Positions 2,208 to 12,924 of a stretch of 62,190 bases of DNA are shown one piece after another (position 1 is the stretch's first letter; every line of letters begins with the position of its first letter). Source of the DNA: a virus (lineage: Duplodnaviria; Caudoviricetes); the IMG/VR virus record IMGVR_UViG_3300031787_000118, positions 1 to 62,190 of that record. One strand, given 5' to 3'. The notes under the pieces were generated by a model. The model was not told the DNA's origin. It saw only the letters and a program-made list of their open reading frames with translations, and ran no database searches. The translations under genes and the position numbers were made by a program.

Positions 2208-2813
2208 TTACAATCCTTGGTCTGCATAAATGCTTGCACCATTCATTTCTTCAATCAATTCTTGAGAAGCATACATTTCACCATTACCTCTCAAATCAAT
2301 GTCTTCAGTAGCTTCCTTTTTCCAAACATTAACTTTGTATTGGATTCTACCTGAACCATCCAAAATTAACTGTCCAGCATTATCACTGTTGCTACCATAT
2401 CTGATAGCTTGACTGTTTGCAAAACTATCAAGTGTAGTCAAACCACTATTAATTGCTTGTTTCTGATTATCATTCAGAATTGGAGCATTAGATGTGATTT
2501 GTTGAATACATTGATTAGGATGTTTTGCCAACATTTCCTTTACTTTTGCTTCAGTGTAATCACTTGGTACAAGTAACCAAGCAACTCTTGTACTTGTGTT
2601 GCTAAATGATTGCTCTTCAGCACCAAATGTAGAATCATCTACAAGAGCATCCTGCAAATCACTATTGTATTTCTTTCCTGCATAATAACTTGTAGTAGTA
2701 ATAACTTGCTTTACTTCTACAGTTTTTGAACCTTGTTTTTGTTTTTCAGCCTTGTAAAGGCGGCTAAAAGTAACTTTTCCTTTTTTCGTGCTAATTCTTG
2801 TTGCGTTACTCAT
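2208..2813 (-). CDS. Hypothetical replication-module protein (possibly ssDNA-binding)
   Basis: 201-aa ORF next to the polymerase with an acidic C-terminal region; function inferred from context only. Confidence 0.6.
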   Translation of the reverse strand: MSNATRISTKKGKVTFSRLYKAEKQKQGSKTVEVKQVITTTSYYAGKKYNSDLQDALVDDSTFGAEEQSFSNTSTRVAWLLVPSDYTEAKVKEMLAKHPNQCIQQITSNAPILNDNQKQAINSGLTTLDSFANSQAIRYGSNSDNAGQLILDGSGRIQYKVNVWKKEATEDIDLRGNGEMYASQELIEEMNGASIYADQGL

Positions 2814-2865
2814 GGTTGTTTAATTTAAAATGTTTAAAAATGGTATATTAATTTGATTATTTACA

Positions 2866-2894
2866 TAAAAAAAGAGTTGTATTTCTACAACTCT
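2866..2894 (-). terminator. GAAA-loop intrinsic terminator
   Basis: Minus strand AGAGTTGTA-GAAA-TACAACTCT then a T-run. Confidence 0.7.
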
Positions 2895-3033
2895 CTAAAC
2901 CTAAAAACTCTATGAAAAAAACTTATTGTTAAATGAAAAAATAGCTTTGAGTTTCTGTTAACGAGTTACACCCATCATATTATTTCTCAAAGCTATTAAC
3001 TAACTAAAAACCAAAACTATCAAAAATGTATAT

Positions 3034-3122
3034 TGGTACTCCAAGAGGGATTTGAACCCTCACAATCTTTTCAGATTACAGGATTTTAAGTCCTGCGTGT
3101 ATACCTGTTCCACCATTGAAGC
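3034..3122 (-). tRNA. tRNA-Leu(TAA), CCA encoded
   Basis: Minus strand GCTTCAATGGTGGAACAGGTATACACGCAGGAC-TTAAAA-TCCTG...long variable arm...GGGTTCAAATCCCTCTTGGAGTACCA; anticodon TAA. Confidence 0.93.
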
Positions 3123-3290
3123 ATAAGAATTGGGTATATTTCTATACCCAATTAAATTGACAATAAACGTAACCCCACGTTACCCTATGAACTTTTTGTT
3201 TTAATCTTAAATTAAATAATCTCATTACACGCCAAACAGTAATGATTCTTCAGATTTAGCCTTTAAATAATTATTTAATTTTTGTTTTAG

Positions 3291-3363
3291 TATTCCCATC
3301 AGGACTCGAACCTGAAACCTACAACTTAGAAGGTTGTTGCTCTTCCAATTGAGCTATGGAAAC
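3291..3363 (-). tRNA. tRNA-Arg(TCT), CCA not encoded
   Basis: Minus strand GTTTCCATAGCTCAATTGGAAGAGCA-ACAAC-CTTCTAA-GTTGT-AGGTTTCAGGTTCGAGTCCTGATGGGAATA; anticodon TCT. Confidence 0.92.
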
Positions 3364-3421
3364 TGAACCTCTCCACAAATATAATTCTTTTTTTGTTTTT
3401 CATAGAATTATAAGGAAAAAT

Positions 3422-3456
3422 TGTCAAAACTAAGGGGGGGTGTTGAGGGGAAGGAC
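3422..3456 (-). promoter_or_regulatory. 35-bp repeated early-region motif, copy 1 (candidate phage RNAP promoter) upstream of the tRNAs
   Basis: Plus strand TGTCAAAACTAAGGGGGGGTGTTGAGGGGAAGGAC aligns without gaps to four other intergenic copies. Confidence 0.65.
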
Positions 3457-3488
3457 TAATAAAAAATAAACTAAATCCTTTTACAGAT

Positions 3489-3686
3489 TTAGTTTAAATG
3501 AAAAACCATTAAAGATATTTCATTAGTTTTCTTTAATTCTTGTATAACACCACTAACATTTTCAGTTGTACCTATAACCATTGATTTAGGTATATGCTCT
3601 TTAATTACAAGTGCAGATGAATTCTCATTAGCAATTTGTAAAAGAATAAGTATTGGTTCATCAACTTTTATGTCTGTAGTTAACAT
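3489..3686 (-). CDS. Hypothetical protein
   Basis: ORF track 3489-3773; ATG at 3686 (MLTTDIKV) avoids the overlap with the upstream gene. Confidence 0.5.
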   Translation of the reverse strand: MLTTDIKVDEPILILLQIANENSSALVIKEHIPKSMVIGTTENVSGVIQELKKTNEISLMVFHLN

Positions 3687-3702
3687 AGTTATTTGTTTTC
3701 TT

Positions 3703-3963
3703 TTACGTTGTTTGAGGATTATCAGTATTAAACACACAATCGTCATCAGCATTAAGATTAATGTTGTTATCATCTATCCACTTTTTTAATATGCTTTTGT
3801 TATTATACTTTCCAACAAAAATACTAAGAGAAGAGTTTTCTCCTCTTAGTATTATTACATCTTTTTTTGGAGAATTAACAACTAAATCTCCAAACATCTT
3901 TTTCATGCAAGAATCACTTGCCTTATACTTTTCATTCCCCATTTCTTTGTTGTGGTTGTGCAC
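3703..3963 (-). CDS. Hypothetical protein
   Basis: ORF in a tightly packed minus-strand run; start may be 3942. Confidence 0.5.
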   Translation of the reverse strand: MHNHNKEMGNEKYKASDSCMKKMFGDLVVNSPKKDVIILRGENSSLSIFVGKYNNKSILKKWIDDNNINLNADDDCVFNTDNPQTT

Positions 3964-4186
3964 TTAATGTATCATCCATTTTATCAATACTTAAAGATAA
4001 GAATATTCTAAGAATTTTTCTAAAAATATCTAATTCTTTATAAATGATAATTCCATGTAATCCACCAATTGTTAACACACTATCTCCTACATGTAACATT
4101 GGAAGATAAATTGCAGATTCTACAACATTAGAATCATAAGATTCTATGATACTGTCATCAGCTCCATTTATAATTTCTATTTTCAT
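3932..4186 (-). CDS. Hypothetical protein
   Basis: 84-aa ORF with an ATGA overlap with the upstream gene. Confidence 0.55.
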   Translation of the reverse strand: MKIEIINGADDSIIESYDSNVVESAIYLPMLHVGDSVLTIGGLHGIIIYKELDIFRKILRIFLSLSIDKMDDTLSAQPQQRNGE

Positions 4187-4365
4187 TTGAGATTTCTTTT
4201 AATTTTTACAAATGTTGCACCCATAAGTATAGGCCATATTGCAAAATGTAATGGAAAAAGAACTATGAAAGAAACTAATATTTCAAGAAAACTTGGTTTT
4301 TTCCAATCAATTTCACCAATTGTCATTCCAAGTGCAACTAATACTGAAAATAATAAATATGTCAT
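4183..4365 (-). CDS. Small membrane protein (two hydrophobic segments)
   Basis: 60 aa, hydrophobic N-terminal and central segments, basic C-terminus. Confidence 0.6.
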   Translation of the reverse strand: MTYLLFSVLVALGMTIGEIDWKKPSFLEILVSFIVLFPLHFAIWPILMGATFVKIKRNLK

Positions 4366-4367
4366 AA

Positions 4368-4637
4368 TTATGGTTTTTTCAATGATTTAAAATAGTTATT
4401 TACAAATACTGCTTGTTCATTACTTAATTCAACACAAGCATGTATAATTTCTTTGTTTTCTTCAAATTTTCTGAGATTATGATTTTCTAAAAATCTCATT
4501 TGTAATTGGGTATAGCAATATAATAAATTAGCTTTAATTACTGCTTTAGTACATCCCTCAACTGCTCCTGAATCTATAGATTTCTTTATGTTTCCATAAC
4601 ATTCATCTAAGAATTCTTCTATTTCTTGTTTGCTCAT
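4368..4637 (-). CDS. Hypothetical protein
   Basis: 89-aa ORF in operon-like packing. Confidence 0.6.
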   Translation of the reverse strand: MSKQEIEEFLDECYGNIKKSIDSGAVEGCTKAVIKANLLYCYTQLQMRFLENHNLRKFEENKEIIHACVELSNEQAVFVNNYFKSLKKP

Positions 4638-4723
4638 CTTTGTCCTGCTCCAGTCTTAATTTGTGTTTGAGAAGGTGCTTCTTGTCCTGTAGTGGTTTCT
4701 CCACCATTATTCTGAATATTCAT
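4634..4723 (-). CDS. 29-aa microprotein MNIQNNGGETTTGQEAPSQTQIKTGAGQR
   Basis: Fills the gap; its TGA overlaps the ATG of the next gene (ATGA). Below the ORF-track cutoff. Confidence 0.5.
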   Translation of the reverse strand: MNIQNNGGETTTGQEAPSQTQIKTGAGQR

Positions 4724-4735
4724 AGTTGTTTGAAA

Positions 4736-5011
4736 TTAAAAAGTGTTACGAAAAAATGAAATTACTTCAACCCATTTAGATTCTTCTCTTGTTGTAGAAA
4801 TATCATATCCTTGAAAATACACATGATGTTTTCCAAGTATTGTTTCAACTTTCACATTACTCACTAACAAGTTATGTTTAGGTTCAACTTCATCACTCAC
4901 CATTATTTTATTTGTATCTAAATAATAGTCATAATGTATTGTTTTACCTACCCATTCATTGTGTAAAGCTTCTTGAATTAATTGCTCTACATTATATTTC
5001 TTTTTTCCCAT
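4736..5011 (-). CDS. Hypothetical protein
   Basis: 91-aa ORF. Confidence 0.6.
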   Translation of the reverse strand: MGKKKYNVEQLIQEALHNEWVGKTIHYDYYLDTNKIMVSDEVEPKHNLLVSNVKVETILGKHHVYFQGYDISTTREESKWVEVISFFRNTF

Positions 5012-5026
5012 AGTTTTATAAATTGA

Positions 5027-5052
5027 AAAGGGAATGATTTCTCATTCCCTTT
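5027..5052 (-). terminator. GAAA-loop hairpin
   Basis: Minus strand AAAGGGAATGA-GAAA-TCATTCCCTTT. Confidence 0.6.
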
Positions 5053-5063
5053 AATGTTACTAA

Positions 5064-5372
5064 TTAATTCTCTTGGAATTTTATGTCATAACTGTTTCTC
5101 ATTCCTGCATGTACAGGGTATGAGGTTTTGCCTTGTGTTTTGATATGAATGAAACTAAATTGTTTTTTAGCTTCATTAACAATTACTTGTTTCTTGCCTG
5201 CTCTTAGTTTACCAAACACATAATTGTTCAATTTCTTTAGTTGTTTGTTAGCATAGGATTTTTGTTTTCCTTTATTTACATATACAACTAAATCTTCTTG
5301 ATGAAGTAATTTAGCTTCTTCATTTGTTGCTCTGATTACAGCTCCTGTGCTTTTGAATTTGATGTTTTTCAT
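5064..5372 (-). CDS. Basic hypothetical protein
   Basis: 102 aa, Lys-rich. Confidence 0.6.
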   Translation of the reverse strand: MKNIKFKSTGAVIRATNEEAKLLHQEDLVVYVNKGKQKSYANKQLKKLNNYVFGKLRAGKKQVIVNEAKKQFSFIHIKTQGKTSYPVHAGMRNSYDIKFQEN

Positions 5373-5384
5373 GATTTGTTTTAA

Positions 5385-5687
5385 TTAAATAGTTTGTAAT
5401 AATTGTGTTTCTTCTATTTCTGCTGTAATGTCTTCATGAATATGTTCAAATCTCCATTCAGCAAATGAGAGTTCTCTTCTAATACCACCCAATGAAGGAA
5501 TGGTAAATGTAGGATTTCTTATCTCTTCAAGTAAATAAGAAACTACTAATCCATCATTGTCAAATGTTTCTCTAATGGTGTAAGTTTCTCCTTTTACAGG
5601 AAAAGATAATGGCAATCCTTTAGCTTCTCTTGTTAACTCTTCAATTACTTTTGAAAAGTTGTCATTAATACATTTTACTTTATTCAT
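5385..5687 (-). CDS. Hypothetical phage protein
   Basis: 100-aa ORF (VKCIND...GETYTIRE...LEEIRNP...FAEWRF). Confidence 0.65.
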   Translation of the reverse strand: MNKVKCINDNFSKVIEELTREAKGLPLSFPVKGETYTIRETFDNDGLVVSYLLEEIRNPTFTIPSLGGIRRELSFAEWRFEHIHEDITAEIEETQLLQTI

Positions 5688-6139
5688 TTAAACTCATGTG
5701 GTTTAATGTGAAATAATAGTGAGAATGTAACATTAGTATTTGCTTTTTGACTTTTCCATATCCAATCAAGTCCAAAGTTTAAATTAACTTCTAACTTATC
5801 TTTAAATATGTATCTACCTCCAGCAGTTACACCAGTTACAAAACTCTTATGTTTGTAAATGATATTTGACCAATTTACTGTTATCTCTTTGTTAGTGACA
5901 AAGTATTTTTGGTGTACATCAAATACACAATATCCCTTTTGCATTCCTATTCCCAATTTATAAAAATTAGGGAATACTCCAATGTGAGCACGTAGTAATT
6001 TGTAATCAATTCCTACAATAATTGCAGGTTTTGTTTCTTGTTCAACTCCGTAATCAATGCCTAATCCAAAATGAGGATTAACTTGTGCATTGCTAAACTG
6101 AACAATAAAAAGTGCTAATAAAATAATAATGTTTTTCAT
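5684..6139 (-). CDS. Signal-peptide protein, possible small outer-membrane beta-barrel
   Basis: Signal peptide MKNIIILLALFIVQFSNA-Q followed by alternating amphipathic strands (FGLGIDYG, IIVGIDY, LGIGMQ, VTAGGRY, LNFGLDW). Confidence 0.6.
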   Translation of the reverse strand: MKNIIILLALFIVQFSNAQVNPHFGLGIDYGVEQETKPAIIVGIDYKLLRAHIGVFPNFYKLGIGMQKGYCVFDVHQKYFVTNKEITVNWSNIIYKHKSFVTGVTAGGRYIFKDKLEVNLNFGLDWIWKSQKANTNVTFSLLFHIKPHEFK

Positions 6140-6444
6140 GTTAATGGTGGATTTTGTTGATTAAATTCATTGGTTAATTTCAAAATGTTTTGTAAAAGAT
6201 TTACTTGAGGGTCATAAACTGATTTTGCTTGTTCAAAACCATGAGTTTTTCCATGATTAAAATGATATTGTTGATTTGTTAATTCTTGATTTTTAAGAGG
6301 TTCTATAAATCTCAATACCTCTTTTAATGCTGTTTCATAAGTTTCTTGTCTTTTACCTCCAAATCTATTAGAAGTTGACATAAGTCTTTTGACTTCTTTT
6401 TCAATTGCTTCTATGATGCTGTTCATAATGTTAATTATTATCAA
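6136..6444 (-). CDS. Hypothetical protein
   Basis: About 100-aa ORF; start may be the internal MNSIIE. Confidence 0.55.
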   Translation of the reverse strand: MIIINIMNSIIEAIEKEVKRLMSTSNRFGGKRQETYETALKEVLRFIEPLKNQELTNQQYHFNHGKTHGFEQAKSVYDPQVNLLQNILKLTNEFNQQNPPLT

Positions 6445-6449
6445 AATTA

Positions 6450-6479
6450 AAAAATAAAGGGGAATATTTCTACTCCCCT
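6450..6479 (-). terminator. GAAA-loop intrinsic terminator
   Basis: Minus strand AGGGGAGTA-GAAA-TATTCCCCT then TTATTTTTT. Confidence 0.7.
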
Positions 6480-6484
6480 AATGA

Positions 6485-7231
6485 TTATGCTGCAATTTTA
6501 TTTTCTATGTGCCAATTTTCATCAATGATTGTGTTATTAACATAAATACAATCATCAATTTCATTGTATTCTCTTGATTGTCTAAGATAATGATTAAAAT
6601 TGAAAATTCTTTTAGTGTCAATATTGATAGCTACAGGGATTTCACAAAGTTCTTCAAATGCTCCCTTAAACATTTGATTCATTACAGGCCAATTACAATT
6701 TCTATTGTTAACTTGTTTTTTAAACATGTTAAGAAACATCAATTGAAAGAACATAAGTTTTGGCTCACTTTCTTGAAAATAATTTCCTTGTTCGGGAGTT
6801 GTGTAAAAATTGTTTTCTATTTCTTCAAAATACATAATTGTTCTTTGCAAACCTTTGTCAGAAGTTAATAAGAAAGTTTTCTTAGATATTAAAGTCCAAT
6901 CATCAGCATGTAAAAGTTCAAGGTCTTTAAAATCTTCAATACATCTTCTTTCTATTTTATTATCCCAAATAATAAGTAATTCAGGAATAACAAATACTCG
7001 TGCATCTTCATCATAAGTGTGATTAGCACTTTGCATTTTTAAAGTTCTTATTAATTCTTTATAACCTTTAGTTACAAGGTCAATTTGTAATTTTACATCT
7101 TTGTCTTCAGTTTTAATCATAAACATAAGGCAAAGGTATTGTCTAATAAATTCTGAAGCATTTCCAAAAATAGAAAATTGCATTAAGAAATTTAAGATTT
7201 CTTCTGTTGTAATTTTTTGATAGTTTTTCAT
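6485..7231 (-). CDS. Hypothetical protein
   Basis: 248-aa ORF, no recognised motif. Confidence 0.7.
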   Translation of the reverse strand: MKNYQKITTEEILNFLMQFSIFGNASEFIRQYLCLMFMIKTEDKDVKLQIDLVTKGYKELIRTLKMQSANHTYDEDARVFVIPELLIIWDNKIERRCIEDFKDLELLHADDWTLISKKTFLLTSDKGLQRTIMYFEEIENNFYTTPEQGNYFQESEPKLMFFQLMFLNMFKKQVNNRNCNWPVMNQMFKGAFEELCEIPVAINIDTKRIFNFNHYLRQSREYNEIDDCIYVNNTIIDENWHIENKIAA

Positions 7232-7394
7232 GGTTTTTTGAGTTTTATTTAGAGTTATTAAATTAGTTAAAAAACAATGTACGTGCTAAATTGTGGACGT
7301 TAGGCAACTATACACCAGCTGACTAACTATTTCTTTACATTGTTAAACAAATGGTTAGCTGCCAACTTTCAGGGCTGACTACATATAACCATTT

Positions 7395-7709
7395 TTACTT
7401 TTTGTTTTTATAATAATGTTGAACATTTTCTTTTCTTGTTAACCATTCTAAATTTGAACTGTTATTATTGAGTTTATTCCCATCCATATGGTTAACTGTA
7501 TCTTTGTTTTGTAAATTTTCACAAAAAGCTTTAGCTACTAAGATGTGAATTTTTACTTTTTTAACTTTACCTTTAATACTAATGTTACAATATAAATATC
7601 CTCTTTTATTTATATTACATTTTAATATTTTACCTTTTCTGTTTTTAAATCTGCCATAATTAGATATTTCATAATTATTAGATTCTTCAATGTTTTTCCA
7701 CTTTTCCAT
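7395..7709 (-). CDS. NUMOD4 + HNH homing-endonuclease-like protein
   Basis: N-terminal MEKWKNI...YEISNYGR (NUMOD4), then IHILVAKAF...VNHMDGNKLNNNSSNLEWLTRKENVQH (HNH). Confidence 0.88.
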   Translation of the reverse strand: MEKWKNIEESNNYEISNYGRFKNRKGKILKCNINKRGYLYCNISIKGKVKKVKIHILVAKAFCENLQNKDTVNHMDGNKLNNNSSNLEWLTRKENVQHYYKNKK

Positions 7710-7729
7710 ATGATAAATTTATTTTTTTA

Positions 7730-8452
7730 GAACCCTCTCTTACAACTATCCCCAAAGGAAACGATTTCTCTGTCATTGTAAGAGTAGGGTCACGTGATTA
7801 TTTCAATGATTTCGTTCTATCAATATTTCAGATAGTGCAGTACTTTCAACTATACATAATCACTTGCTGAGAACTCATTTGTGTTGTAGGGCTACTTGGC
7901 TTTCCCTCTTACCTATAGATTTTTATTCCTTTCTCAAGAGAACAACACATTCCAACTTTCATTGGACATCTTTAATGAATTTTGCTTACTTAGCTTACAG
8001 TAGAACTTTAATCCACTAACATGTTAAGGAATTACACCTTATTGCTGTAAGCTTACTTCTGTTCATTCAGGAATCAATGTTTAGCCTGTTTGTTTATTTT
8101 AACTTATTGTTTGGTATGCTGAATAACCAAGAACTACGTTTTAATATTACATGATTTTAATAATTTGTATAACAATATCAACTATGTTTCCCTATAGAAA
8201 ACTACAATCAATATTATTAGATGTTTGGACTTTTGTTATTTAGTAAAATAAAGGGAATGTTTTTCATTGACATTCCCTTTAAGTTTGAGCTTAACACTCT
8301 TTAATTTTAGAATTCGAGTTTGCTAATGCTCTGAGATTGTGGATTTACATTTCCAAAGCAATAAGGAAAACACCTTTAGTTTGTTTTATTTCCATAACAT
8401 TATTACACTAATACACCATGTCAAACTAATACGATAACTGTAATAATTTAAT
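7730..8452 (-). ncRNA. Putative structured non-coding RNA cluster
   Basis: No ORF of 60 aa or more. Consecutive closed stems at 7732-7790, 7794-7863, 7880-7948 (pseudoknot potential) and about 7975-8066; lies directly downstream of motif copy 2. Confidence 0.5.
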
Positions 8453-8487
8453 TGTCCAAAATAAGTGGGGGTGGAGAGGGAATGGAT
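8453..8487 (-). promoter_or_regulatory. 35-bp repeated early-region motif, copy 2
   Basis: Plus strand TGTCCAAAATAAGTGGGGGTGGAGAGGGAATGGAT. Confidence 0.65.
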
Positions 8488-8494
8488 GAAAAGA

Positions 8495-8524
8495 AAATAT
8501 AAAAGGATTTCTCCTTTTATATTT
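8495..8524 (-). terminator. GAAA-loop hairpin
   Basis: Minus strand AAATATAAAAGGA-GAAA-TCCTTTTATATTT followed by a T-rich tract. Confidence 0.6.
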
Positions 8525-9026
8525 AACTCATTAAACTATCAAGTAGTTGAATAACTAATTCAATATTATTAATAGATTTAAAATCACCAAGTAATAAATT
8601 TATTTGCTCACCATAGATTTCTACAAATTCTGCAAGTGTGTTAAAATAATGTGGAAGCATTTCCCATTTTAGTATTAAATTGTAGAATGCTGTAACCATT
8701 TCTTCATTGTATTCTATATCCCAAGTAATCATTCCTGTACCTGAATCTATTCTTTGCTCGTGTTTTGTAATAATTTTTGGGCCATATTCATTATATTTAA
8801 AATCCCAACTACCACCTGAAAACACTAATACATTTCTAATCTTAGAATATTCTAAATCTAAATAACATAATTGTTCTGATATTAAATATAAAAGTTCTGT
8901 TGCTTTAGTTACAACATAAGGAGCATAATGTAATCCCTCTGCATTTTTATAAGTAATTAAAAAGTTTTGACATAGCATAAAAATATTTGTTTTATAATGA
9001 ACTAATCTTTTAAAAAATATGTTCAT
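8523..9026 (-). CDS. Hypothetical protein
   Basis: 167-aa ORF. Confidence 0.6.
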   Translation of the reverse strand: MNIFFKRLVHYKTNIFMLCQNFLITYKNAEGLHYAPYVVTKATELLYLISEQLCYLDLEYSKIRNVLVFSGGSWDFKYNEYGPKIITKHEQRIDSGTGMITWDIEYNEEMVTAFYNLILKWEMLPHYFNTLAEFVEIYGEQINLLLGDFKSINNIELVIQLLDSLMS

Positions 9027-9055
9027 TTTTATAAATTAAAAATTGATAAAAATTG

Positions 9056-9164
9056 ACAAATGTCAATATGAAATAATACTTTACTCCCTTCCCTTATATA
9101 TTGGTAAAGGAGAGAGTCCAGAGAGAGGAAACCCCTGTAAAGTTTTTTTCATATTGACATTTGT
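9056..9164. repeat. 109-bp element bounded by a perfect 18-bp inverted repeat
   Basis: ACAAATGTCAATATGAAA (9056-9073) and its exact reverse complement (9147-9164), with a purine/pyrimidine-skewed interior. Confidence 0.8.
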
Positions 9165-9166
9165 GT

Positions 9167-9448
9167 TTAATAATCAAATTCAGTATCAAAAATATCAATT
9201 AAATATTGTTTAAAATCTTCATAAGATTTAAACTCATTCACATTTCCATCCCTTGTTACTGCAATAACTTTAATAAAATCTCCTACACTTGTAGGCCCTG
9301 ATTTTAATTGTTCATGAAATACAGTTACAAGAATATGATGTGGAAAATCTTTAAAACTTAATGCAACTGTATCCATTGCTTCAGTTTTATAAGTTTCATA
9401 AGAACACCATCCAATTTTAGGGAATTTGATTGATAATATATATTGCAT
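9167..9448 (-). CDS. Hypothetical protein
   Basis: 93-aa ORF. Confidence 0.6.
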   Translation of the reverse strand: MQYILSIKFPKIGWCSYETYKTEAMDTVALSFKDFPHHILVTVFHEQLKSGPTSVGDFIKVIAVTRDGNVNEFKSYEDFKQYLIDIFDTEFDY

Positions 9449-9503
9449 AATTTGTTTATATTTAAAAGTTTACAATAAGAGAGCTAATTAAAGCTCTCTT
9501 TTT

Positions 9504-9794
9504 TTAGTTTTCTCCGTAAGCATTATCACAATTAGAACATAACCATTTACAATATGTATTTAGTTCTGTTTTCTCTTCACTTTCACAAAAAGGGCAAGTT
9601 ATATCATTTTCATCAGTAACTATATCCCAACCTACATCTTCATTGTTATCAAGCCATTTTTCAAATGCTTCTTGTATTTGTTCTTCAATGGTGCCGTTGT
9701 CTTCATATAGTTTTACTTCAACTATTTCTTCAGTATAACCTGCATTACACCAAAAATTAACTTTGATAGTTTCAGGCATTTTTTCATTGCTCAT
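9504..9794 (-). CDS. Acidic protein with C-terminal Zn-ribbon
   Basis: CPFC...CSNC motifs; very acidic. Confidence 0.65.
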   Translation of the reverse strand: MSNEKMPETIKVNFWCNAGYTEEIVEVKLYEDNGTIEEQIQEAFEKWLDNNEDVGWDIVTDENDITCPFCESEEKTELNTYCKWLCSNCDNAYGEN

Positions 9795-9806
9795 AATTAT
9801 ATAGTT

Positions 9807-10007
9807 TTATTTGTTCCATTTCTTTTTATATCTTGTAATAAAGTCAATTGGAAACTTAGAACTCCAACCACAAGAACAAGTAAATTGTTCAATTTGTGGA
9901 CTCCAAGTAGTTCTTGGATTTCTATGTTTACAATTGTCATTACCACAATAAGGAGAGTAATTTTCTACTTCCATTAAGTTTTGTCTTACAATTGAATCTT
10001 CACTCAT
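9807..10007 (-). CDS. Small Cys-rich (Zn-finger-like) protein
   Basis: YSPYCGNDNC...FTCSCGW. Confidence 0.65.
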   Translation of the reverse strand: MSEDSIVRQNLMEVENYSPYCGNDNCKHRNPRTTWSPQIEQFTCSCGWSSKFPIDFITRYKKKWNK

Positions 10008-10022
10008 GTTTAAATAAATTTA

Positions 10023-10054
10023 AAAGAATAACTGTATTTCTACAGTTATTCTTT
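10023..10054 (-). terminator. GAAA-loop hairpin
   Basis: Minus strand AAAGAATAACTGTA-GAAA-TACAGTTATTCTTT (14-bp perfect stem). Confidence 0.65.
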
Positions 10055-10060
10055 GGTTTG

Positions 10061-10420
10061 TTATTTGGATATATTTAAAGTTGCATGTGGAAATGCAATG
10101 CAATCAACTAATAGTTTTTGTAACCAAGGAATGAATTGTTCTCTTGTTCCCCAACCATTAGATGCTGAAAATACATTGAATTTTTCAGGATGATTTTGCA
10201 AATTTTGTATTGCTTCAGTTAATGGAGCAATTAAAGCACCTGCTTTTGTATCATAATCCATATCCCATAAAATACCACAACCTGATTCTCTTGCCATATC
10301 TCTAAGGTTATGAGTAATGTTATGTTCAAATATGGTTTCATAAGTTCCTATTTCACAATGTCCACAATTAGGACATTGATGTGTTTGTACAGGCATTGTA
10401 CCATAAATATCTAAACTCAT
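10061..10420 (-). CDS. Conserved-looking hypothetical phage protein
   Basis: MSLDIY...CPNC...NITHNL..MA...LW...NGWG pattern, recalled from other phage early proteins. Confidence 0.7.
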   Translation of the reverse strand: MSLDIYGTMPVQTHQCPNCGHCEIGTYETIFEHNITHNLRDMARESGCGILWDMDYDTKAGALIAPLTEAIQNLQNHPEKFNVFSASNGWGTREQFIPWLQKLLVDCIAFPHATLNISK

Positions 10421-10482
10421 AGCTTTATTATTTAGTTAAATTAAAAAATAAAAGAGAATCCTTGTTAGGGATTCCCTTATGA

Positions 10483-10761
10483 TTAGTTGATAAATTCAAT
10501 TGAGCCATCATCAGTTCTGATAATATATTTTTTAACTCTATGGTAATTGTTTCCTGATATTTGACATCTACCATTTGTAAAAAATCTAAAAGTTTCCCAA
10601 TTACAATCTCCATCTGCATCAGGTTCAGTACTCCATGCACAAGTGAAAGATTCATCTTCTTGTGTTTTAGTAAATTTGTCAAAGTTTTTAGCAAGTTGAG
10701 ATTTAATTTCAACTGCTTTTGCTATTTGTTCTACTGTATAATTTACATTTGTTTGTAGCAT
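10483..10761 (-). CDS. Hypothetical protein
   Basis: 92-aa ORF with an ATG start; preferred over the overlapping frame 10428-10712. Confidence 0.6.
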   Translation of the reverse strand: MLQTNVNYTVEQIAKAVEIKSQLAKNFDKFTKTQEDESFTCAWSTEPDADGDCNWETFRFFTNGRCQISGNNYHRVKKYIIRTDDGSIEFIN

Positions 10762-10818
10762 GTCTTTAGGTTTTAAAAAATAAAGAAAAAAGAGAGAGTT
10801 GTTACACTCTCTCTGAAA

Positions 10819-11181
10819 TTAGTTTACAGTTGTTCCTTTAGGTATGAACACTTTGTATGAAACACTTGCATTGTGATTATTCACAATGAACTGTTTTCCT
10901 TGTGAGATAACAGTATTGTTTTCATTAACTACAGTTGCAATTGGTGTTGCAGTGTTAGCAACTTGTTGAGTAGCTACAGTGCCACCATTAGTGCTAACAT
11001 AGGTTTCAACAATGATTCTGCTACCTTTTGCTTCTACAACTTGTACTTTACCCTCTAACTTGAGGGTAACTGTAGGTGTTGCTACTACAGTTTTGTGAGT
11101 AGCAACAGTATTTTGTGCATAAGTTGACAAATGAAGACAAGTCAACAACATGATTAGGATAAGAGTGAGTACAGCTTTCAT
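10819..11181 (-). CDS. Secreted/periplasmic protein (signal peptide)
   Basis: MKAVLTLILIMLLTCLHLSTYA-Q signal peptide and a Thr/Val-rich beta body; first gene after motif copy 3. Confidence 0.7.
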   Translation of the reverse strand: MKAVLTLILIMLLTCLHLSTYAQNTVATHKTVVATPTVTLKLEGKVQVVEAKGSRIIVETYVSTNGGTVATQQVANTATPIATVVNENNTVISQGKQFIVNNHNASVSYKVFIPKGTTVN

Positions 11182-11211
11182 GATAAGTGAGTATTATAAG
11201 TTTGTAATAAA

Positions 11212-11246
11212 TGTCAAGACTAAGTTGGGGTGGATAGGTAAGGGAT
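11212..11246 (-). promoter_or_regulatory. 35-bp repeated early-region motif, copy 3
   Basis: Plus strand TGTCAAGACTAAGTTGGGGTGGATAGGTAAGGGAT. Confidence 0.65.
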
Positions 11247-11249
11247 AAA

Positions 11250-11610
11250 TAAAAAATAAATAATCAAGCTCCCTTTATTCGATGACTCGGCTGTGGATTT
11301 AAGTGTGTACAGCTTAGTACACTTGATTATTTAAAAAACTATTAACAGAGCATACATTATTTCATTAAGATAAAGTAGAGAATATAGTCTTCCAACTGAC
11401 ATCACTCACAGTAGCAATTTTCTTCTAAACAATTGTGCACCATTGCTTAGTTACTTCTTGTTGTACTGCATCAGTTTTCACAAACTGATTGTATCTTAAT
11501 TAGTATGTTGTTAATAGTTAACAATGCTTTTAAACCAAGTGCATTGTAAATTCGTCTTGTCATAATTATGCGCCTTCTTTCGGAAAGCAGGGTTTTATGA
11601 GTCTACCCTG
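11250..11610 (-). ncRNA. Putative multi-domain structured ncRNA (about 350 nt)
   Basis: ORF-free interval between motif copies 4 and 3. It has a 5' hairpin pair with pseudoknot potential, a multibranch domain 11338-11518 with a GTGA tetraloop, and a closed domain 11260-11330 followed by a T-rich tract. Confidence 0.55.
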
Positions 11611-11643
11611 TCAAAACTTAATGGGAGTGTGAAGGGAATGGAT
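11609..11643 (-). promoter_or_regulatory. 35-bp repeated early-region motif, copy 4
   Basis: Plus strand TGTCAAAACTTAATGGGAGTGTGAAGGGAATGGAT. Confidence 0.65.
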
Positions 11644-11672
11644 TAATAGAAATAAAAAAGTAAAATACTCTT

Positions 11673-11855
11673 TTATTTATCTAATTTAATAAAAGACATC
11701 CAAATGAATATTAGACCAAAAGAAATGCCTAAATACATTTGTATGAAGTCACCTATTTTTTGGTCAACATAAGTTTGTGGTATAAATGCCATGATTATAA
11801 AACTTATACCTACAATGAAAGGTATAAGTTTGAGCATGATGAATGATAGTTTCAT
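11673..11855 (-). CDS. Small two-TM membrane protein
   Basis: 60 aa with two hydrophobic helices. Confidence 0.6.
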   Translation of the reverse strand: MKLSFIMLKLIPFIVGISFIIMAFIPQTYVDQKIGDFIQMYLGISFGLIFIWMSFIKLDK

Positions 11856-11935
11856 AATAGTGTGAAATGTGATAGGTTAAATAAAAAGAAATACTATACC
11901 TTACGGGATATAGTATTTCAATGGTTTGTGATTTG

Positions 11936-12205
11936 TTAGAGTGTGGTTAAGGTTGTGAGTCCTGCACCTTCTGCTACATTGATAAGACATGCAGATTCCA
12001 TAATAGGATTGCCTTTCTTATCAAATTCACTACAGATGAATGAGAGATTACCTTTAACATCAATGTCTTGTTGACATTTGAGTGCGGTATCTTCATCGAC
12101 AATGACAAATAGTTTGTCTGTCTTTGGGTTTTTCACAACTTTAATTTCTGTCACACCAAAGTGTGCTTTGACCTGAGCCACTGAGAAGAATTTTACATCA
12201 GCCAT
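11936..12205 (-). CDS. Small early protein resembling a conserved crAss-like family
   Basis: IKVVKNPKTDKLF motif recalled from crAss-like early proteins; first gene after motif copy 5. Confidence 0.7.
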   Translation of the reverse strand: MADVKFFSVAQVKAHFGVTEIKVVKNPKTDKLFVIVDEDTALKCQQDIDVKGNLSFICSEFDKKGNPIMESACLINVAEGAGLTTLTTL

Positions 12206-12240
12206 GATAGTAGAGTATTAAATGGTTTAAATTAATTTAT

Positions 12241-12275
12241 TGTCAAAACTAAAGGGAAGTGGAAAGGGAAAGGAT
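12241..12275 (-). promoter_or_regulatory. 35-bp repeated early-region motif, copy 5
   Basis: Plus strand TGTCAAAACTAAAGGGAAGTGGAAAGGGAAAGGAT. Confidence 0.65.
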
Positions 12276-12364
12276 ATTTATGTGCCAAGAAAAGAAAACA
12301 TTGGAGCAAAGGTGGGGGTATGAAAATCAAATTAGAAAAGGGTGGGGTTTTATTAGAGGGGAAT

Positions 12365-12493
12365 CACACATTAACTATTTCTACAACTTCTAAAAAATTT
12401 TATAAAAAATCCACACATCAACTATTCACATAACTCCTAAAAATTTTATAAAAAATAAAACACACTATCTCCTAAAATTATTTTCAAAAAAAT
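12365..12493 (+). repeat. Imperfect tandem direct repeats (about 46 bp x2 plus a shorter copy) at the strand switch
   Basis: CACACATTAACTATT...CTAAAAAATTTTATAAAAAAT / CACACATCAACTATT...CTAAAAATTTTATAAAAAAT / CACACTATCTCCTAAAATTATTTTCAAAAAAAT. Confidence 0.7.
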
Positions 12494-12539
12494 CTGAACC
12501 TTTTTTCAGTTTAATTTCTTACTTTGTTATTACTTTTTT

Positions 12540-12547
12540 TATCTTTG
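12540..12547 (+). promoter_or_regulatory. Bacteroidota -7 promoter element (TAnnTTTG)
   Basis: TATCTTTG 14 nt before the first plus-strand ATG. The upstream TTTG at 12523 is closer than usual spacing. Confidence 0.45.
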
Positions 12548-12561
12548 TAAAAATTATAATC

Positions 12562-12924
12562 ATGAAACCATTAAGCAAGAAATTAACACTTGAGCCAAAT
12601 CAGTATTATATTGTGCATTTATCTATTGTTAATGCACTTATCCCTGTTAAACTAACACCTAAAGAGATAGAGGTGTTAGCTTGTTTTATGTCACTTAAAG
12701 GTGACATAGCTAAAGATAGATTTGGAGCTACTGCAAGAAAGTTTGTAAAACAAACTCTTAACTTATCTGATGGTGGATTAGGAAACTATCTTAAAAGTTT
12801 AAAAGAAAAGAAGTTTATCTCTGATGCAAATGAGATACTTTCTGCATTAATGCCAAGTGAAGATAAACAAGAATATTTAATTCAACTAATAAACAAAAAA
12901 GATGGCAAGGAATCCATTAGTTGA
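12562..12924 (+). CDS. Winged-HTH DNA-binding protein
   Basis: LTPKEIEVL...VKQTLNLSDGGLGNYLKSLKEKKFI pattern. Confidence 0.7.
   Translation: MKPLSKKLTLEPNQYYIVHLSIVNALIPVKLTPKEIEVLACFMSLKGDIAKDRFGATARKFVKQTLNLSDGGLGNYLKSLKEKKFISDANEILSALMPSEDKQEYLIQLINKKDGKESIS

What the first reader, a model, noticed from the sequence alone, without database searches (positions are those of the whole stretch)
7730..8452. Second ORF-free tract: string of closed stem domains including a pseudoknotted junction
Seen: about 720 nt without a 60-aa ORF after motif copy 2, built of back-to-back domains. These are AGCTTACAGCAA/CTACTGTAAGCT (7992-8053), TGTGTTGT/ACAACACA (7880-7948), GTGATTAT/ATAATCAC (7794-7863) and ACCCTACTCTTACAA/TTGTAAGAGAGGGT (7732-7790). 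In the 7880-7948 domain the inner loop TTGAGAA is complementary to TTCTCAG just 3' of the stem, a loop-to-3'-tail pseudoknot similar to the 5' domain of the 11.6-kb RNA. The 10-mer TAAATCCACA (minus strand) occurs both here (8338-8347) and in the other tract (11292-11301). Inference: a modular array of small structured RNAs.
Basis: partly seen in the sequence, partly recalled or inferred. Interest (0 to 1): 0.7.

Follow-up and report, generated by a model that had tools for sequence, protein, structure and literature searches.

The report
Widespread structured phage RNA, unnamed
The gene-free stretch encodes a roughly 360-base folded RNA that is abundant in nature, is shared by well over a hundred phages, matches a mystery RNA seen in one cultured crAss-like phage, and has no known function.

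Summary
The window is a crAss-like (Crassvirales) phage contig. It is not private to this phage. Three independent short anchors found it in about 160 viral contigs and in only 2 contigs from cellular species genomes. A covariance model places the phi14:2 "g004-g005 long non-coding RNA" in the same family (105.5 bits); that RNA was reported as highly abundant and of unknown function. Covariation is strong: on a sample chosen independently of the core, 97% of cells pair, 19 of 24 pairs change on both sides, and 0 of 500 shuffles reach the observed score. The pseudoknot has two compensatory double changes. In three freshwater metatranscriptomes, the only perfectly matching RNA contigs in 9.8 kb are this RNA and the other ORF-free tract. 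No Rfam family matches. In other phages the gene sits in tRNA/tmRNA clusters on the same strand, and HNH homing-endonuclease genes invade or abut it. The upstream third of the tract (8088-8452) is a lineage-specific leader behind a repeated promoter motif. Function is unknown. My best guess is a stable trans-acting RNA or RNP that acts on host translation or RNA surveillance. "An array of separate small RNAs" is only partly right.

The parts
8453..8487 (-). Promoter-type motif copy ('motif copy 2'): C-rich block followed by TTATTTTGGACA
   Evidence: One of 4 copies found as direct repeats. A fifth copy at 3420-3458 lies just upstream of tRNA-Arg (E 1e-4; tRNA). Aligned. Copies 11212 and 12241 sit directly upstream of ORF starts. 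The promoter function and the start site are inferred, not mapped.
8243..8452 (-). Lineage-specific leader; may be a separate ~200-nt small RNA ending in a terminator-like hairpin (stem-loop 8251-8279, then AUUUUA)
   Evidence: Hairpin z -4.8. 8300-8446 is unstructured (z +0.3). A ~55-nt block (8319-8378) is conserved in L175 and L060/L061 only. The X7 RNA run has depth in bin 8359-8685, but that piece is not listed.
8088..8242 (-). Spacer with a long hairpin (8160-8215); not conserved elsewhere
   Evidence: Hairpin z -3.7. No blastn match in 243 loci. Covered by one RNA contig at lower depth (X7 8052-8234, depth 4 against 13.7).
7727..8087 (-). The structured RNA: a member of the phage RNA family that includes the phi14:2 g004-g005 lncRNA
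   Evidence: R1 model hits: window 7852-7996, 112 bits; phi14:2 3084-3219, 105.5 bits. Family consensus and boundaries. RNA contigs with 0 mismatches: 7733-8079, 7778-8078 and 7793-8079 in three runs.
8074..8087 (-). S1: 5' boundary motif AGGCUAAACAUUGA (family AGGYUAAACAUUGA), predicted single-stranded
   Evidence: UAAACAUUGA is invariant in 24 of 24 full-length members. Conservation starts abruptly at AGGY in 90 distinct loci, with no conserved upstream signal. No recurrent complement nearby. RNA contigs of 3 runs end at 8078/8079, inside this motif.
7970..8071 (-).
   Evidence: V1 is absent in minimal members such as L071, L072, L076, L090 and L113. Hd compensations were read (GUAAA/UUUAC to GAUGA/UCAUC, GAUAGU/ACUAUC, GUGAAC/GUUCAC; window GAAU/AUUC) and were not formally counted. 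Window hairpin z -2.1.
7951..7966 (-). Ha: GNRA-tetraloop hairpin (UCCAAU-GAAA-GUUGGA)
   Evidence: 6 of 6 pairs change on both sides in A2 and in A3. Loops are GUAA, GAAA, GUGA or GAGA.
7880..7949 (-). Hb closing stem (7943-7949 with 7880-7886), enclosing hairpin Hc (7939-7942/7926-7929, loop CUUGAGAAA 7930-7938) and variable hairpin Hv
   Evidence: Hb: 7 of 7 pairs compensated, 99.3% paired. Hc: 4 of 4 pairs compensated (on members found without using the core).
7867..7873 (-). 3' strand of the pseudoknot (UUCUCAG), pairing with loop UUGAGAA at 7931-7937
   Evidence: 96.9% of cells paired. 2 pairs show a double change (L195 U-A to C-G; L200 G-C to A-U). 2 pairs show wobble-type changes only. 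3 pairs depart only by unpaired cells, at the A-U end. The pseudoknot was not part of the model.
7794..7863 (-). He stem (GUGAUUAU/AUAAUCAC) plus variable domain V3
   Evidence: The family stem GUAGUUA/UAACUAC is 88.6% paired in 49 sequences, with 24 double-change cells against 5.3 +/- 2.4 in shuffles (0 of 1000). The domain is absent in 9 members where CAGC abuts UUGACCC.
7727..7790 (-). Hf terminal hairpin with a sequence-conserved base (ACCCUACUCUUA.../...UAAGAGAGGGU), then UCUAAA
   Evidence: The base is invariant in 24 of 24. z -3.4. The 17-mer anchor from this base found 93 stretches.
7395..7709 (-). Free-standing HNH homing-endonuclease gene abutting the RNA gene
   Evidence: NUMOD4 (E 3e-11) plus HNH_3 (E 7e-9). 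Homologs lie within 4.5 kb of the RNA in 5 of 115 loci, the window included. In L166 and L179 such an ORF replaces part of the RNA gene.

Best explanation
Window 8087-7727 (minus strand) is the gene for one stable, highly expressed, structured non-coding RNA of about 360 nt. It belongs to a widespread, phage-borne RNA family that has no name and is not in Rfam. The phi14:2 'g004-g005 long non-coding RNA' is a member of this family.

Shown: the architecture runs as follows. An invariant single-stranded 5' motif (AGGYUAAACAUUGA). An optional domain V1 closed by stem Hd. A GNRA hairpin Ha. A three-way junction closed by Hb, which holds hairpin Hc and a variable hairpin. A pseudoknot between the Hc loop and the strand 3' of Hb. 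An optional domain closed by He. A terminal hairpin Hf with a sequence-conserved base. Conserved core plus freely varying peripheral hairpins is the pattern of an RNA that works through its fold.

Inferred: the RNA is made from a promoter about 360 nt upstream (motif copy at 8453-8487) and is trimmed out of a longer transcript at its conserved boundary motifs. It acts in trans as a protein-bound RNA, either a decoy or a scaffold, on the host's translation or RNA-surveillance machinery. The basis for that is its habitual place inside phage tRNA/tmRNA gene clusters. I hold this last mechanistic step at only about 35-40%. The identity and structure I hold at above 90%. The HNH gene next to it is a homing endonuclease that uses the conserved RNA gene as a landing site, not a functional partner.
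For: Family:
- An exact 22-mer from the core is in 93 viral contigs and in 2 contigs from 185,579 species genomes.
- Two other anchors (Ha, Hf) gave 43 and 93 stretches, with 19 and about 58 new loci.
- Model R1 hits 70 of those 77 new loci at E <= 1e-3, 64 of them at 50 bits or more.

Structure:
- A2 (70 sequences): 93% of cells paired against 39-48% with partners slid; 134 double-change cells against 40 +/- 5 in shuffles.
- A3 (70 distinct sequences, sampled independently of the core): 97% paired; 19 of 24 pairs changed on both sides; 203 double-change cells against 45 +/- 5; 0 of 500 shuffles reach it.
- He: 0 of 1000 shuffles reach the observed value.
- RNAalifold on 24 full-length members recovers Ha, Hb, He and Hf.

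Strand:
- All tRNA and tmRNA genes within 2.5 kb are co-oriented with the RNA (tmRNA in 14 of 93 loci, tRNA in 20 of 93).
- GNRA loops appear only on this strand.

Expression:
- Three metatranscriptomes from three studies hold perfectly matching contigs over 7733-8079, 7778-8078 and 7793-8079, and none over the flanking protein genes.
- Two more abundant RNA contigs (depths 16.9 and 112.8) share the conserved blocks but have different variable domains.

phi14:2:
- R1 scores 105.5 bits at 3084-3219 (+).
- The preprint reports that region as transcribed rightward, above most genes, from the earliest time point and without later decline (passages read).

Not coding:
- No ORF under three genetic codes.
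- tblastx best E 0.1.

Boundaries:
- Conservation starts sharply at AGGY with no shared upstream signal in 90 loci.

Single copy:
- One R1 hit in each of 4 complete genomes.
Against: - No direct evidence of function. The trans-acting decoy/scaffold idea rests only on genomic context and on analogy.
- This window has no tmRNA, and its tRNAs are 4.4 kb away.
- Only 14 of 93 loci have a tmRNA and 20 of 93 have tRNAs within 2.5 kb, so the association is partial.
- Contigs cannot show strand, ends or abundance, and DNA carry-over in RNA libraries is possible. Against carry-over, the neighbouring genes are absent.
- The common contig end at 8078/8079 may be an assembly-graph branch rather than an RNA end: X7 has an overlapping contig that runs on to 8234.
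- The pseudoknot's two outer A-U pairs are broken in L177/L180, L183 and L193, and L171 has a different tail.
- A 'mini' form keeps UUCUCAG without the partner loop, so that strand may also have another role.
- Alignment A3 was fitted to the model for Ha, Hb and Hc, which biases pair counts towards the structure (not for the pseudoknot).
- Related sequences can exceed shuffles without any structure.
- The most frequent neighbouring protein (phrog_15656, 30 of 115 loci) is absent from the window and has no recognisable fold.
- crAss001 has no convincing copy.
Confidence: 0.8

Rival explanations
1. An array of separate small RNAs. The tract is transcribed as a precursor and cut into several independent hairpin-sized RNAs, each acting alone.
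For: The domains are modular: V1, Hv and V3 vary in length or are absent. RNA contigs of two runs start at 7778 and 7793 rather than 7733. The upstream leader may be a separate small RNA with its own terminator-like hairpin and a small conserved block. A 'mini' form carrying only the 3' module exists in some loci.
Against: The domains keep a fixed order between fixed boundary motifs in about 160 contigs. The pseudoknot and Hb tie distant segments together. One RNA contig spans all four domains. The variable domains are the least conserved parts, which is the opposite of what independent functional small RNAs would show.
Confidence: 0.08
2. A ribozyme. The conserved pseudoknotted core catalyses RNA cleavage, either of itself at the conserved 5' and 3' boundary motifs (both contain YUAAA), or of neighbouring tRNA or tmRNA precursors.
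For: There is a sharp conserved 5' edge with 8 conserved bases upstream of where the RNA contigs of 3 runs stop. Core nucleotides are invariant in a pseudoknot/three-way-junction fold. The RNA sits directly upstream of tmRNA in 14 of 93 loci. There is no shared promoter, so the ends must be made by processing.
Against: No match to any self-cleaving ribozyme family in Rfam. The contig end may be an assembly artefact. Host RNases could make the ends. Most loci have no tRNA or tmRNA nearby.
Confidence: 0.1
3. A cis-acting leader or regulatory element (riboswitch-like, or a processing or stability element) for the gene downstream: here the HNH gene, elsewhere tmRNA, tRNAs or small ORFs.
For: It lies immediately upstream of a co-oriented gene in most loci, and directly upstream of tmRNA in some. 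The terminal hairpin Hf ends 18 nt before the HNH start codon.
Against: The downstream genes are unrelated to each other across loci. The HNH gene is a mobile late-comer, present in 5 of 115 loci. In metatranscriptomes the RNA is present while the downstream HNH gene is not. In phi14:2 it accumulates independently of early mRNAs.
Confidence: 0.05
4. Not an RNA gene: a decayed protein gene, a run of ordinary terminators, or a DNA-level site (origin, packaging or recombination site, or homing-endonuclease target).
For: The motif copy at 8453 has, where other copies have a gene start, an ATG followed by a stop after 3 codons. HNH genes home to the locus. Inverted repeats score equally on both strands in single-sequence folding.
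Against: Compensatory changes including G-U pairs, strand-specific GNRA loops and length-variable hairpins. No translated similarity. Present as RNA in three runs while the flanking genes are not. Only Hf and the 8251-8279 hairpin look at all like terminators.
Confidence: 0.02

Closest known systems
phi14:2 'g004-g005 junction' long non-coding RNA (Drobysheva et al., bioRxiv 10.1101/2020.03.07.982082; passages read)
   Same: Homologous. Model R1 scores 105.5 bits at phi14:2 3084-3219 on the reported (rightward) strand. Both are in crAss-like phages, in the early/replication-side small-gene region. Both are abundant as RNA.
   Different: The paper reports only a transcribed intergenic region and states that the function remains to be determined. 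In the passages I read there is no structure, family, boundaries or distribution. The window's copy has a different V1, Hv and V3, is followed by an HNH gene rather than g005 plus tmRNA, and the two phages' flanking genes are unrelated.
GOLLD and ROOL RNAs (large ornate phage/prophage RNAs; characteristics recalled, not from a call)
   Same: Large structured RNAs of unknown function carried by phages, often beside tRNA genes; GOLLD was first seen in lake metagenomes (recalled). The family here is likewise phage-borne, sits in tRNA/tmRNA clusters and was found in freshwater data.
   Different: No Rfam match to either family at E <= 5 in the window or E <= 1 in 21 family loci. This RNA is much smaller (about 200-630 nt, typically 300-370). 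No evidence of multimeric assembly.
Phage T4 stable 'species 1' and 'species 2' RNAs of the tRNA cluster (recalled, not from a call)
   Same: Stable small RNAs of unknown function, encoded within a phage tRNA gene cluster and processed from a common transcript (recalled).
   Different: No sequence relationship was tested. Those RNAs are about 120-140 nt and are confined to T4-like phages (recalled). This family spans crAss-like and jumbo phage genomes of 256-373 kb.
tmRNA
   Same: Similar size, pseudoknotted, phage-encoded, and often the immediate downstream neighbour.
   Different: No tRNA-like ends and no tag reading frame. Neither ARAGORN nor the Rfam tmRNA model hits it, while both hit the true tmRNAs next door.
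crAss-like 'extended tripartite' middle promoter (same preprint)
   Same: The window's repeated motif has an upstream block plus elements resembling -35 and -10, precedes genes and a tRNA in the sense direction, and recurs 5 times. The paper notes its motif upstream of tRNA genes in 12 of 14 phages.
   Different: I could not compare sequences, because the paper's logo is a figure and the supplements are closed. RNA contigs of the other tract begin only 8-11 nt after TTGACA, which suggests a start site closer than a classical -35/-10 reading would give.

Membership tests
Unnamed phage RNA family defined here (phi14:2 g004-g005 lncRNA type) | Core sequence and structure: GNRA hairpin Ha, closing stem Hb, hairpin Hc with loop CUUGAGAAA, and 3' strand AAAUGAGUUCUCAGC | tested here: met
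   R1 hit at window 7852-7996 (minus), 112.4 bits, full length 1-143. The window sequence was in the seed alignment, so this holds by construction; independent members score 50-121 bits.
Unnamed phage RNA family defined here (phi14:2 g004-g005 lncRNA type) | Boundary motifs: 5' AGGYUAAACAUUGA and a 3' terminal hairpin on the base ACCCUACUCUUA/UAAGA..GAGGGU followed by YCUAA | tested here: met
   Window has AGGCUAAACAUUGA (8087-8074) and ACCCUACUCUUACAA...UUGUAAGAGAGGGUUCUAAA (7790-7725). The window has U where most members have G before CUAA.
Unnamed phage RNA family defined here (phi14:2 g004-g005 lncRNA type) | Accumulates as an abundant RNA | tested here: met
   Perfectly matching contigs in 3 metatranscriptomes from 3 studies; flanking genes not recovered. 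Strand and exact ends are not shown by contigs.
tmRNA (RF00023) | tRNA-like domain formed by the 5' and 3' ends, plus a tag-peptide reading frame | tested here: not met
   No ARAGORN tmRNA in the window. No Rfam tmRNA hit at E <= 5 in 7300-12600.
Group I intron with a homing-endonuclease ORF | Catalytic core (P3-P9) recognisable by RF00028, and flanking exons of one interrupted gene | tested here: not met
   No Intron_gpI hit at E <= 5. The upstream ORF 8523-9026 ends in a stop followed by a hairpin. The flanking ORFs have no family. The split family loci have no Intron_gpI hit at the RNA either.
GOLLD / ROOL large phage RNAs | Match to the Rfam covariance model | tested here: not met
   No hit in the window or in 21 family loci.
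HNH-associated guide-type RNAs (HEARO/omega RNA of IscB) | Rfam HEARO match, and an adjacent IscB-type protein (RuvC plus HNH, about 400-500 aa) | tested here: not met
   No Rfam hit. The neighbour is a 104-aa NUMOD4 + HNH_3 homing endonuclease and is present in only 5 of 115 loci.
Intrinsic terminators / decayed gene remnants | GC-rich hairpin plus U-run at gene ends, or residual translated similarity to proteins | tested here: not met
   The terminator scan finds none inside 7710-8452. tblastx against 68 loci gives a best E of 0.1.
crAss-like tripartite middle promoter (for the motif at 8453-8487) | Upstream block plus -35-like and -10-like elements, sense orientation upstream of genes and tRNAs, and a mapped start site | tested here: inconclusive
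   Architecture and placement fit. There is no start-site mapping.

The most novel reading that the evidence does not exclude
This is a new class of functional phage RNA on a par with tmRNA, 6S, GOLLD or ROOL. It would be a compact pseudoknotted ribozyme or RNP core, carried by many unrelated Bacteroidota-type phages (crAss-like and jumbo), made from the first minutes of infection. It would act directly on the host's translation or ribosome-rescue machinery, or disarm an RNA-targeting defence. Its invariant single-stranded 5' motif UAAACAUUGA would be the recognition element. Its gene would be important enough to phages that homing endonucleases use it as a safe landing site, as they do rRNA and tRNA genes.
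Probability: 0.25. Interest if true: 0.9.

Novelty: new variant of a known kind. Interest (0 to 1): 0.72.

Why it matters
Large, strongly conserved structured RNAs with unknown function are rare, and they have repeatedly led to new biology (tmRNA, 6S, riboswitches, OLE, ROOL/GOLLD). Three things matter here.

- **It gives an unexplained published observation an identity.** One of the two abundant 'long non-coding RNAs' of the crAss-like model phage phi14:2 now has a defined secondary structure with a pseudoknot, sharp boundaries and about 160 relatives. The other phi14:2 RNA region holds a tmRNA.
- **It is not a crAss peculiarity.** The RNA occurs as a single copy in complete 256-373-kb jumbo phage genomes that lack crAss markers, and almost never in cellular genomes.
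- **The question becomes testable.** phi14:2 and its non-pathogenic marine host are culturable, and the covariation data say which pairs to break and restore.

It also supplies a seed alignment for a new Rfam-type family. That would stop these loci from being annotated with spurious small ORFs; several such ORFs were removed from the phi14:2 RefSeq record exactly here.

Tried and rejected
- **Rfam:** gathering threshold on the whole window, and E-value mode on 7300-12600. Nothing in the tract.
- **GenBank phages, distant blastn of 7300-9100:** only HNH matches.
- **Relatives through flanking proteins:** the 167-aa ORF found none. The DNA polymerase found 2 contigs that break inside the gene and extend away from the tract. 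The large terminase gave 66 loci, none with a homolog of 7727-8452 by blastn or tblastx; only the promoter-motif end matched weakly.
- **Earlier notes of this scan:** none exist for this genome.
- **Group I intron idea for the split RNA genes:** no Intron_gpI hit at those places.
- **Protein-partner idea:** the commonest neighbour (phrog_15656, which is phi14:2 g004; 30 of 115 loci) has no Pfam domain. It has no homolog in the window beyond one E = 0.01 tblastn hit inside the giant ORF. Its AlphaFold model (pLDDT 71.3, pTM 0.51) has no PDB match better than E = 0.48. The window's 248-aa and 167-aa ORFs are unrelated to it.
- **Complement of the invariant 5' motif:** no recurrent partner within reach.
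- **Shared upstream promoter:** none.
- **crAss001:** one 28.6-bit hit inside the tail-fibre gene Gp25, taken as a false positive.
- **p-crAssphage accession recalled from memory:** not in the collection.
- **Leader element scan:** 14 stretches, of which only the 2 already known are homologous.
- **Parts of 2800-12600 without RNA-contig cover:** a hole in contigs proves nothing, so I use them only as contrast.
- **Not used:** the metagenome-contig scan, complex prediction, the protein-atlas search, the search for homologous proteins and the search of protein representatives.
Full report
**What the window is.** It is an IMG/VR virus record of 62,190 bases, estimated 66% complete, with about 29% G+C. 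It is a crAss-like phage (order Crassvirales).
- It encodes a crAss muzzle protein (PF25731, E 8e-43).
- It has crAss-type large terminase, portal and major head protein (PHROGs, E 1e-169 to 1e-190).
- It has a DNA polymerase at 196-2157 on the minus strand.
- An open frame of more than 5,556 aa runs off the right end.
- The finding lies in the leftward-transcribed block of small genes between the polymerase and the divergent structural module.

**Check of the observation.**
- Between the HNH gene (7395-7709, minus; NUMOD4 + HNH_3) and a 167-aa ORF (8523-9026, minus) there is no ORF of 60 aa or more. That holds under table 11, TAG=Q and table 4.
- Single-sequence folding gives only modest support. 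The whole tract scores z -2.7 on the minus strand and -2.3 on the plus strand.
- Of the four domains, only the terminal hairpin (z -3.4) and, weakly, the 7992-8053 hairpin (z -2.1) beat shuffles. The 7880-7948 and 7794-7863 domains do not.
- The shared 10-mer is near chance: 2 observed against 0.33 expected, and 5 of 100 shuffles reach 2.
- On this sequence alone the stems would therefore be unconvincing. The case rests on expression and comparison.

**Expression.**
- Twenty public runs hold part of 7300-9100, and 7 of them are RNA libraries.
- I laid three freshwater metatranscriptomes from three studies (X7, X9, X11) and one DNA run (X5) on 2800-12600.
- The RNA runs gave perfectly matching contigs at 7733-8079 (X7), 7778-8078 (X9) and 7793-8079 (X11). 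X7 also gave 8052-8234 at lower depth.
- The other ORF-free tract was covered too (11273-11601, all three runs).
- Apart from short tRNA-like or chance pieces of 18-38 nt, nothing was recovered over the protein genes in 3127-7704, 8686-10320 and 11629-12600. The DNA run covers 28 of 30 bins.
- Contigs cannot show strand, ends or level, and a hole proves nothing. But this pattern is the opposite of what DNA carry-over would give.
- Two further RNA contigs (depths 16.9 and 112.8) matched only 7861-7888 + 7927-7954 and 7779-7800 + 7863-7889, with different sequence of different length in between. That was the first sign of homologous RNAs with swapped hairpins.

**A family.**
- The 22-mer at 7866-7887 occurs exactly in 93 viral contigs of 4.4-373 kb. 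It occurs in only 2 contigs of one-genome-per-species for 185,579 species, and both are MAG contigs.
- Around it, homology covers 7854-7951 in all 93 and extends further in some.
- An alignment of 77 loci with full flanks showed a conserved element in RNA sense (the window's minus strand). It runs from AGGYUAAACAUUGA to GACCCUACUCUUA...UAAGAAAGAGGGUGCUAA, which corresponds to window 8087-7727.
- Two other anchors, chosen outside the core, found more members. The GNRA-hairpin region gave 43 stretches, 19 of them new. The base of the terminal hairpin gave 93 stretches, about 58 of them new.
- A covariance model of the core (R1: 143 positions, 17 pairs) hits 70 of these 77 new loci at E <= 1e-3, and 64 of them at 50 bits or more.
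- Rfam has no family for it. Across 21 family loci searched in E-value mode, only tRNA, tmRNA and (elsewhere in one locus) group I introns were found.

**Strand.**
- With loci oriented as the window's minus strand, every tRNA and tmRNA gene that ARAGORN finds within 2.5 kb is co-oriented. That is tmRNA in 14 of 93 loci, usually 20-300 nt downstream, and tRNAs in 20 of 93.
- The hairpin next to the core carries GUAA, GAAA, GUGA or GAGA loops only on this strand.

**Structure.**
- On alignment A2 (70 sequences found through the 22-mer), the GNRA hairpin Ha and the small hairpin Hc covary strongly. All 10 of their pairs change on both sides, with 134 double-change cells against 40 +/- 5 in shuffles. 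Pairing falls from 93% to 39-48% when partners are slid.
- Hb and the pseudoknot were invariant in A2, but their 3' strands had been fixed by the search pattern, so that test was uninformative for them.
- On alignment A3 (78 matches, 70 distinct, from loci found without using the core):
  - 97% of cells pair, against 31-57% with partners slid.
  - 19 of 24 pairs change on both sides.
  - 203 double-change cells against 45 +/- 5 in shuffles, and 0 of 500 shuffles reach it.
  - Hb has 7 of 7 pairs compensated, for example AUAUAUUA/UAAUAUAA, ACAUGCAG/CUGCAUGA and AGCUAUUG/CAAUAGCA.
- The pseudoknot was not in the model, so it is not biased by it:
  - It is 96.9% paired.
  - It has two independent double changes: L195 U-A to C-G, and L200 G-C to A-U.
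  - Several wobble-compatible single changes occur.
  - Its two outer A-U pairs are broken in a few sequences.
Across 49 sequences it is 88.6% paired, with 24 double-change cells against 5.3 +/- 2.4 (0 of 1000 shuffles).
- RNAalifold on 24 full-length members independently recovers Ha, Hb, He and Hf. The same alignment shows compensations in the stem that closes V1; I read these by eye and did not count them.
- Caveats: A3 is fitted to the model for Ha, Hb and Hc, and related sequences can beat shuffles without any structure.

**Anatomy in the window (minus strand).**

| Element | Coordinates |
|---|---|
| S1, 5' boundary motif | 8087-8074 |
| Hd + V1 | about 8071-7970 (apical stem 8053-8045 / 8000-7992) |
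| Ha, GNRA hairpin | 7966-7951 |
| Hb | 7949-7943 with 7886-7880 |
| Hc | 7942-7926, loop CUUGAGAAA |
| Pseudoknot | 7937-7931 with 7873-7867 |
| He + V3 | 7863-7794 |
| Hf | 7790-7732 |
| UCUAAA | 3' of Hf |

- Three domains (V1, Hv, V3) vary freely or are missing in relatives. Family length runs from about 200 to 630 nt.
- Conservation begins abruptly at AGGY, and nothing is conserved at a fixed distance upstream in 90 distinct loci. So the family has no shared promoter and is probably cut out of different transcripts.
- The RNA contigs of three runs end at 8078/8079, inside S1. That is a weak hint of a processing site, but it could be an assembly-graph branch, because X7 has an overlapping contig that runs on upstream.

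**Link to a cultured phage.**
- The only GenBank phage with a sequence match is Cellulophaga phage phi14:2, at 3176-3213. R1 scores 105.5 bits at 3084-3219 (+).
- This is the gene-free stretch after g004.
- In the passages of the preprint that I read, two long intergenic regions (the g004-g005 and g005-g006 junctions) were reported as follows:
[quoted passage not shown] - They did not decline later.
- The second region holds a tmRNA at 4031-4500 (ARAGORN; Rfam 46 bits against a gathering score of 47).
- Full-text searches and passages of a Crassvirales review and of a survey of viral structured RNAs turned up no later description.
- The peer-reviewed version is not held and supplements are closed, so I cannot exclude that more is in print.

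**Distribution.**
- One copy each was found in four complete genomes, including jumbo phages of 256, 271 and 373 kb.
- Five large records (178-373 kb) lack the crAss muzzle protein (0 of 5), so the RNA is not confined to Crassvirales.
- The gut model phage crAss001 has only a 28.6-bit hit inside a tail-fibre gene, which I take as a false positive.

**The HNH gene.**
- Homologs of the window's HNH protein lie within 4.5 kb of the RNA in 5 of 115 loci, the window included.
- In L166 and L179 such an ORF has replaced the 3' part of the RNA gene.
- A GIY-YIG endonuclease family is also among the recurrent neighbours (6 loci).
- This is the behaviour of homing endonucleases that target a conserved gene, not of a partner protein.

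**The rest of the tract.**
- 8453-8487 is one of five copies of a motif: a C-rich block followed by TTAGTTTTGACA-like sequence.
- Two copies sit directly upstream of ORF starts, one lies upstream of tRNA-Arg, and two lie upstream of the two expressed ORF-free tracts. I read it as a promoter.
- The other tract's RNA contigs begin 8-11 nt after its TTGACA. The start site may therefore lie closer than a -35/-10 reading implies. This is inference.
- 8452-8243 is a lineage-specific leader that ends in a terminator-like hairpin (z -4.8). It holds a block of about 55 nt shared with only two other phage lineages.
- 8242-8088 is an unconserved spacer with one long hairpin.

**How it most likely works.**
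- Shown: this is a conserved, compact, pseudoknotted fold with invariant junction, loop and 5' single-stranded nucleotides. It tolerates large peripheral insertions, it is abundant and persistent as RNA, and it occurs as a single copy per phage genome.
- Inferred: it is a trans-acting RNA that works through its fold, most probably bound to a protein, on host translation or RNA surveillance. The reason is its habitual company of tRNA and tmRNA genes. I hold this at about 35-40%.
- Rivals:
  - A ribozyme that makes its own ends or processes neighbouring RNAs: about 10%.
  - Separate small RNAs: about 8%.
  - A cis-acting leader: about 5%.
  - Not an RNA gene at all: about 2%.
- The remainder is 'a trans-acting RNA with some other target'.

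**Verdict.** Its interpretation is partly right: structured, modular, pseudoknotted and transcribed, but one RNA rather than an array. The RNA is a new member of a family whose only previously noticed member was an unexplained transcript. The family, its structure and its breadth appear to be undescribed.

Noticed in passing
window 11273-11601 (minus): The other ORF-free tract is a second expressed non-coding RNA. It has perfectly matching RNA contigs in all three metatranscriptomes. It is 93.5% identical over 184 nt (11334-11516) in four relatives whose terminase is only about 81% identical at protein level. It folds with z -3.9. It has no Rfam or ARAGORN hit and is not a member of the R1 family.
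   Followed up: partly
window 3420-3458, 8453-8487, 11212-11246, 11609-11643, 12241-12275 (minus): There are five copies of a promoter-type motif: a C-rich block followed by TTAGTTTTGACA-like sequence. They precede tRNA-Arg, both expressed RNA tracts and two small ORFs. RNA contigs start 8-11 nt after the TTGACA of the 11609 copy, which suggests a start site closer than a -35/-10 reading would give.
   Followed up: partly
L185 (phi14:2 NC_021806) 4031-4500 (+): The second 'long non-coding RNA' region of phi14:2 (the g005-g006 junction) holds a tmRNA gene with tag GSSVQKLAMVA (ARAGORN; Rfam 46 bits, E 4.5e-16). It is not among the features listed for this stretch of the record.
   Followed up: yes
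L166 3638-4391; L179 around 4997-5023; L203, L225, L186, L232, L209, L229: Some phages carry a split RNA gene. A strong core hit lacks its 3' module, then comes an insert, then a weak 'mini' hit with a GNRA hairpin and a restored AGUUCUCAGCAAGUAGUUA with its stems. In L166 and L179 the insert is an HNH ORF starting MENWK. Rfam sees no group I intron there.
   Followed up: partly
A pattern scan found no further true members: of 14 stretches, only the 2 already known are homologous.
   Followed up: partly
30 of 115 RNA-family loci, e.g. L086 4809-5708, L130 1056-1763 (= phi14:2 g004): A co-oriented protein of 210-300 aa (phrog_15656, function unknown) is the commonest neighbour of the RNA. It has no Pfam domain and no PDB fold match. 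It is absent from this window.
   Followed up: partly
window 45522-62189 (+): An open reading frame of more than 5,556 aa runs off the end of the contig, with no Pfam hit in its first 3,993 aa. By position, after the muzzle protein, it may be the giant virion protein of crAss-like phages; this was not tested.
   Followed up: no
L232 8614-10120 (minus): Two group I introns score above the Rfam gathering threshold (69 and 51.6 bits), with a third weak hit, in one family locus about 3 kb from its copy of the RNA.
   Followed up: no
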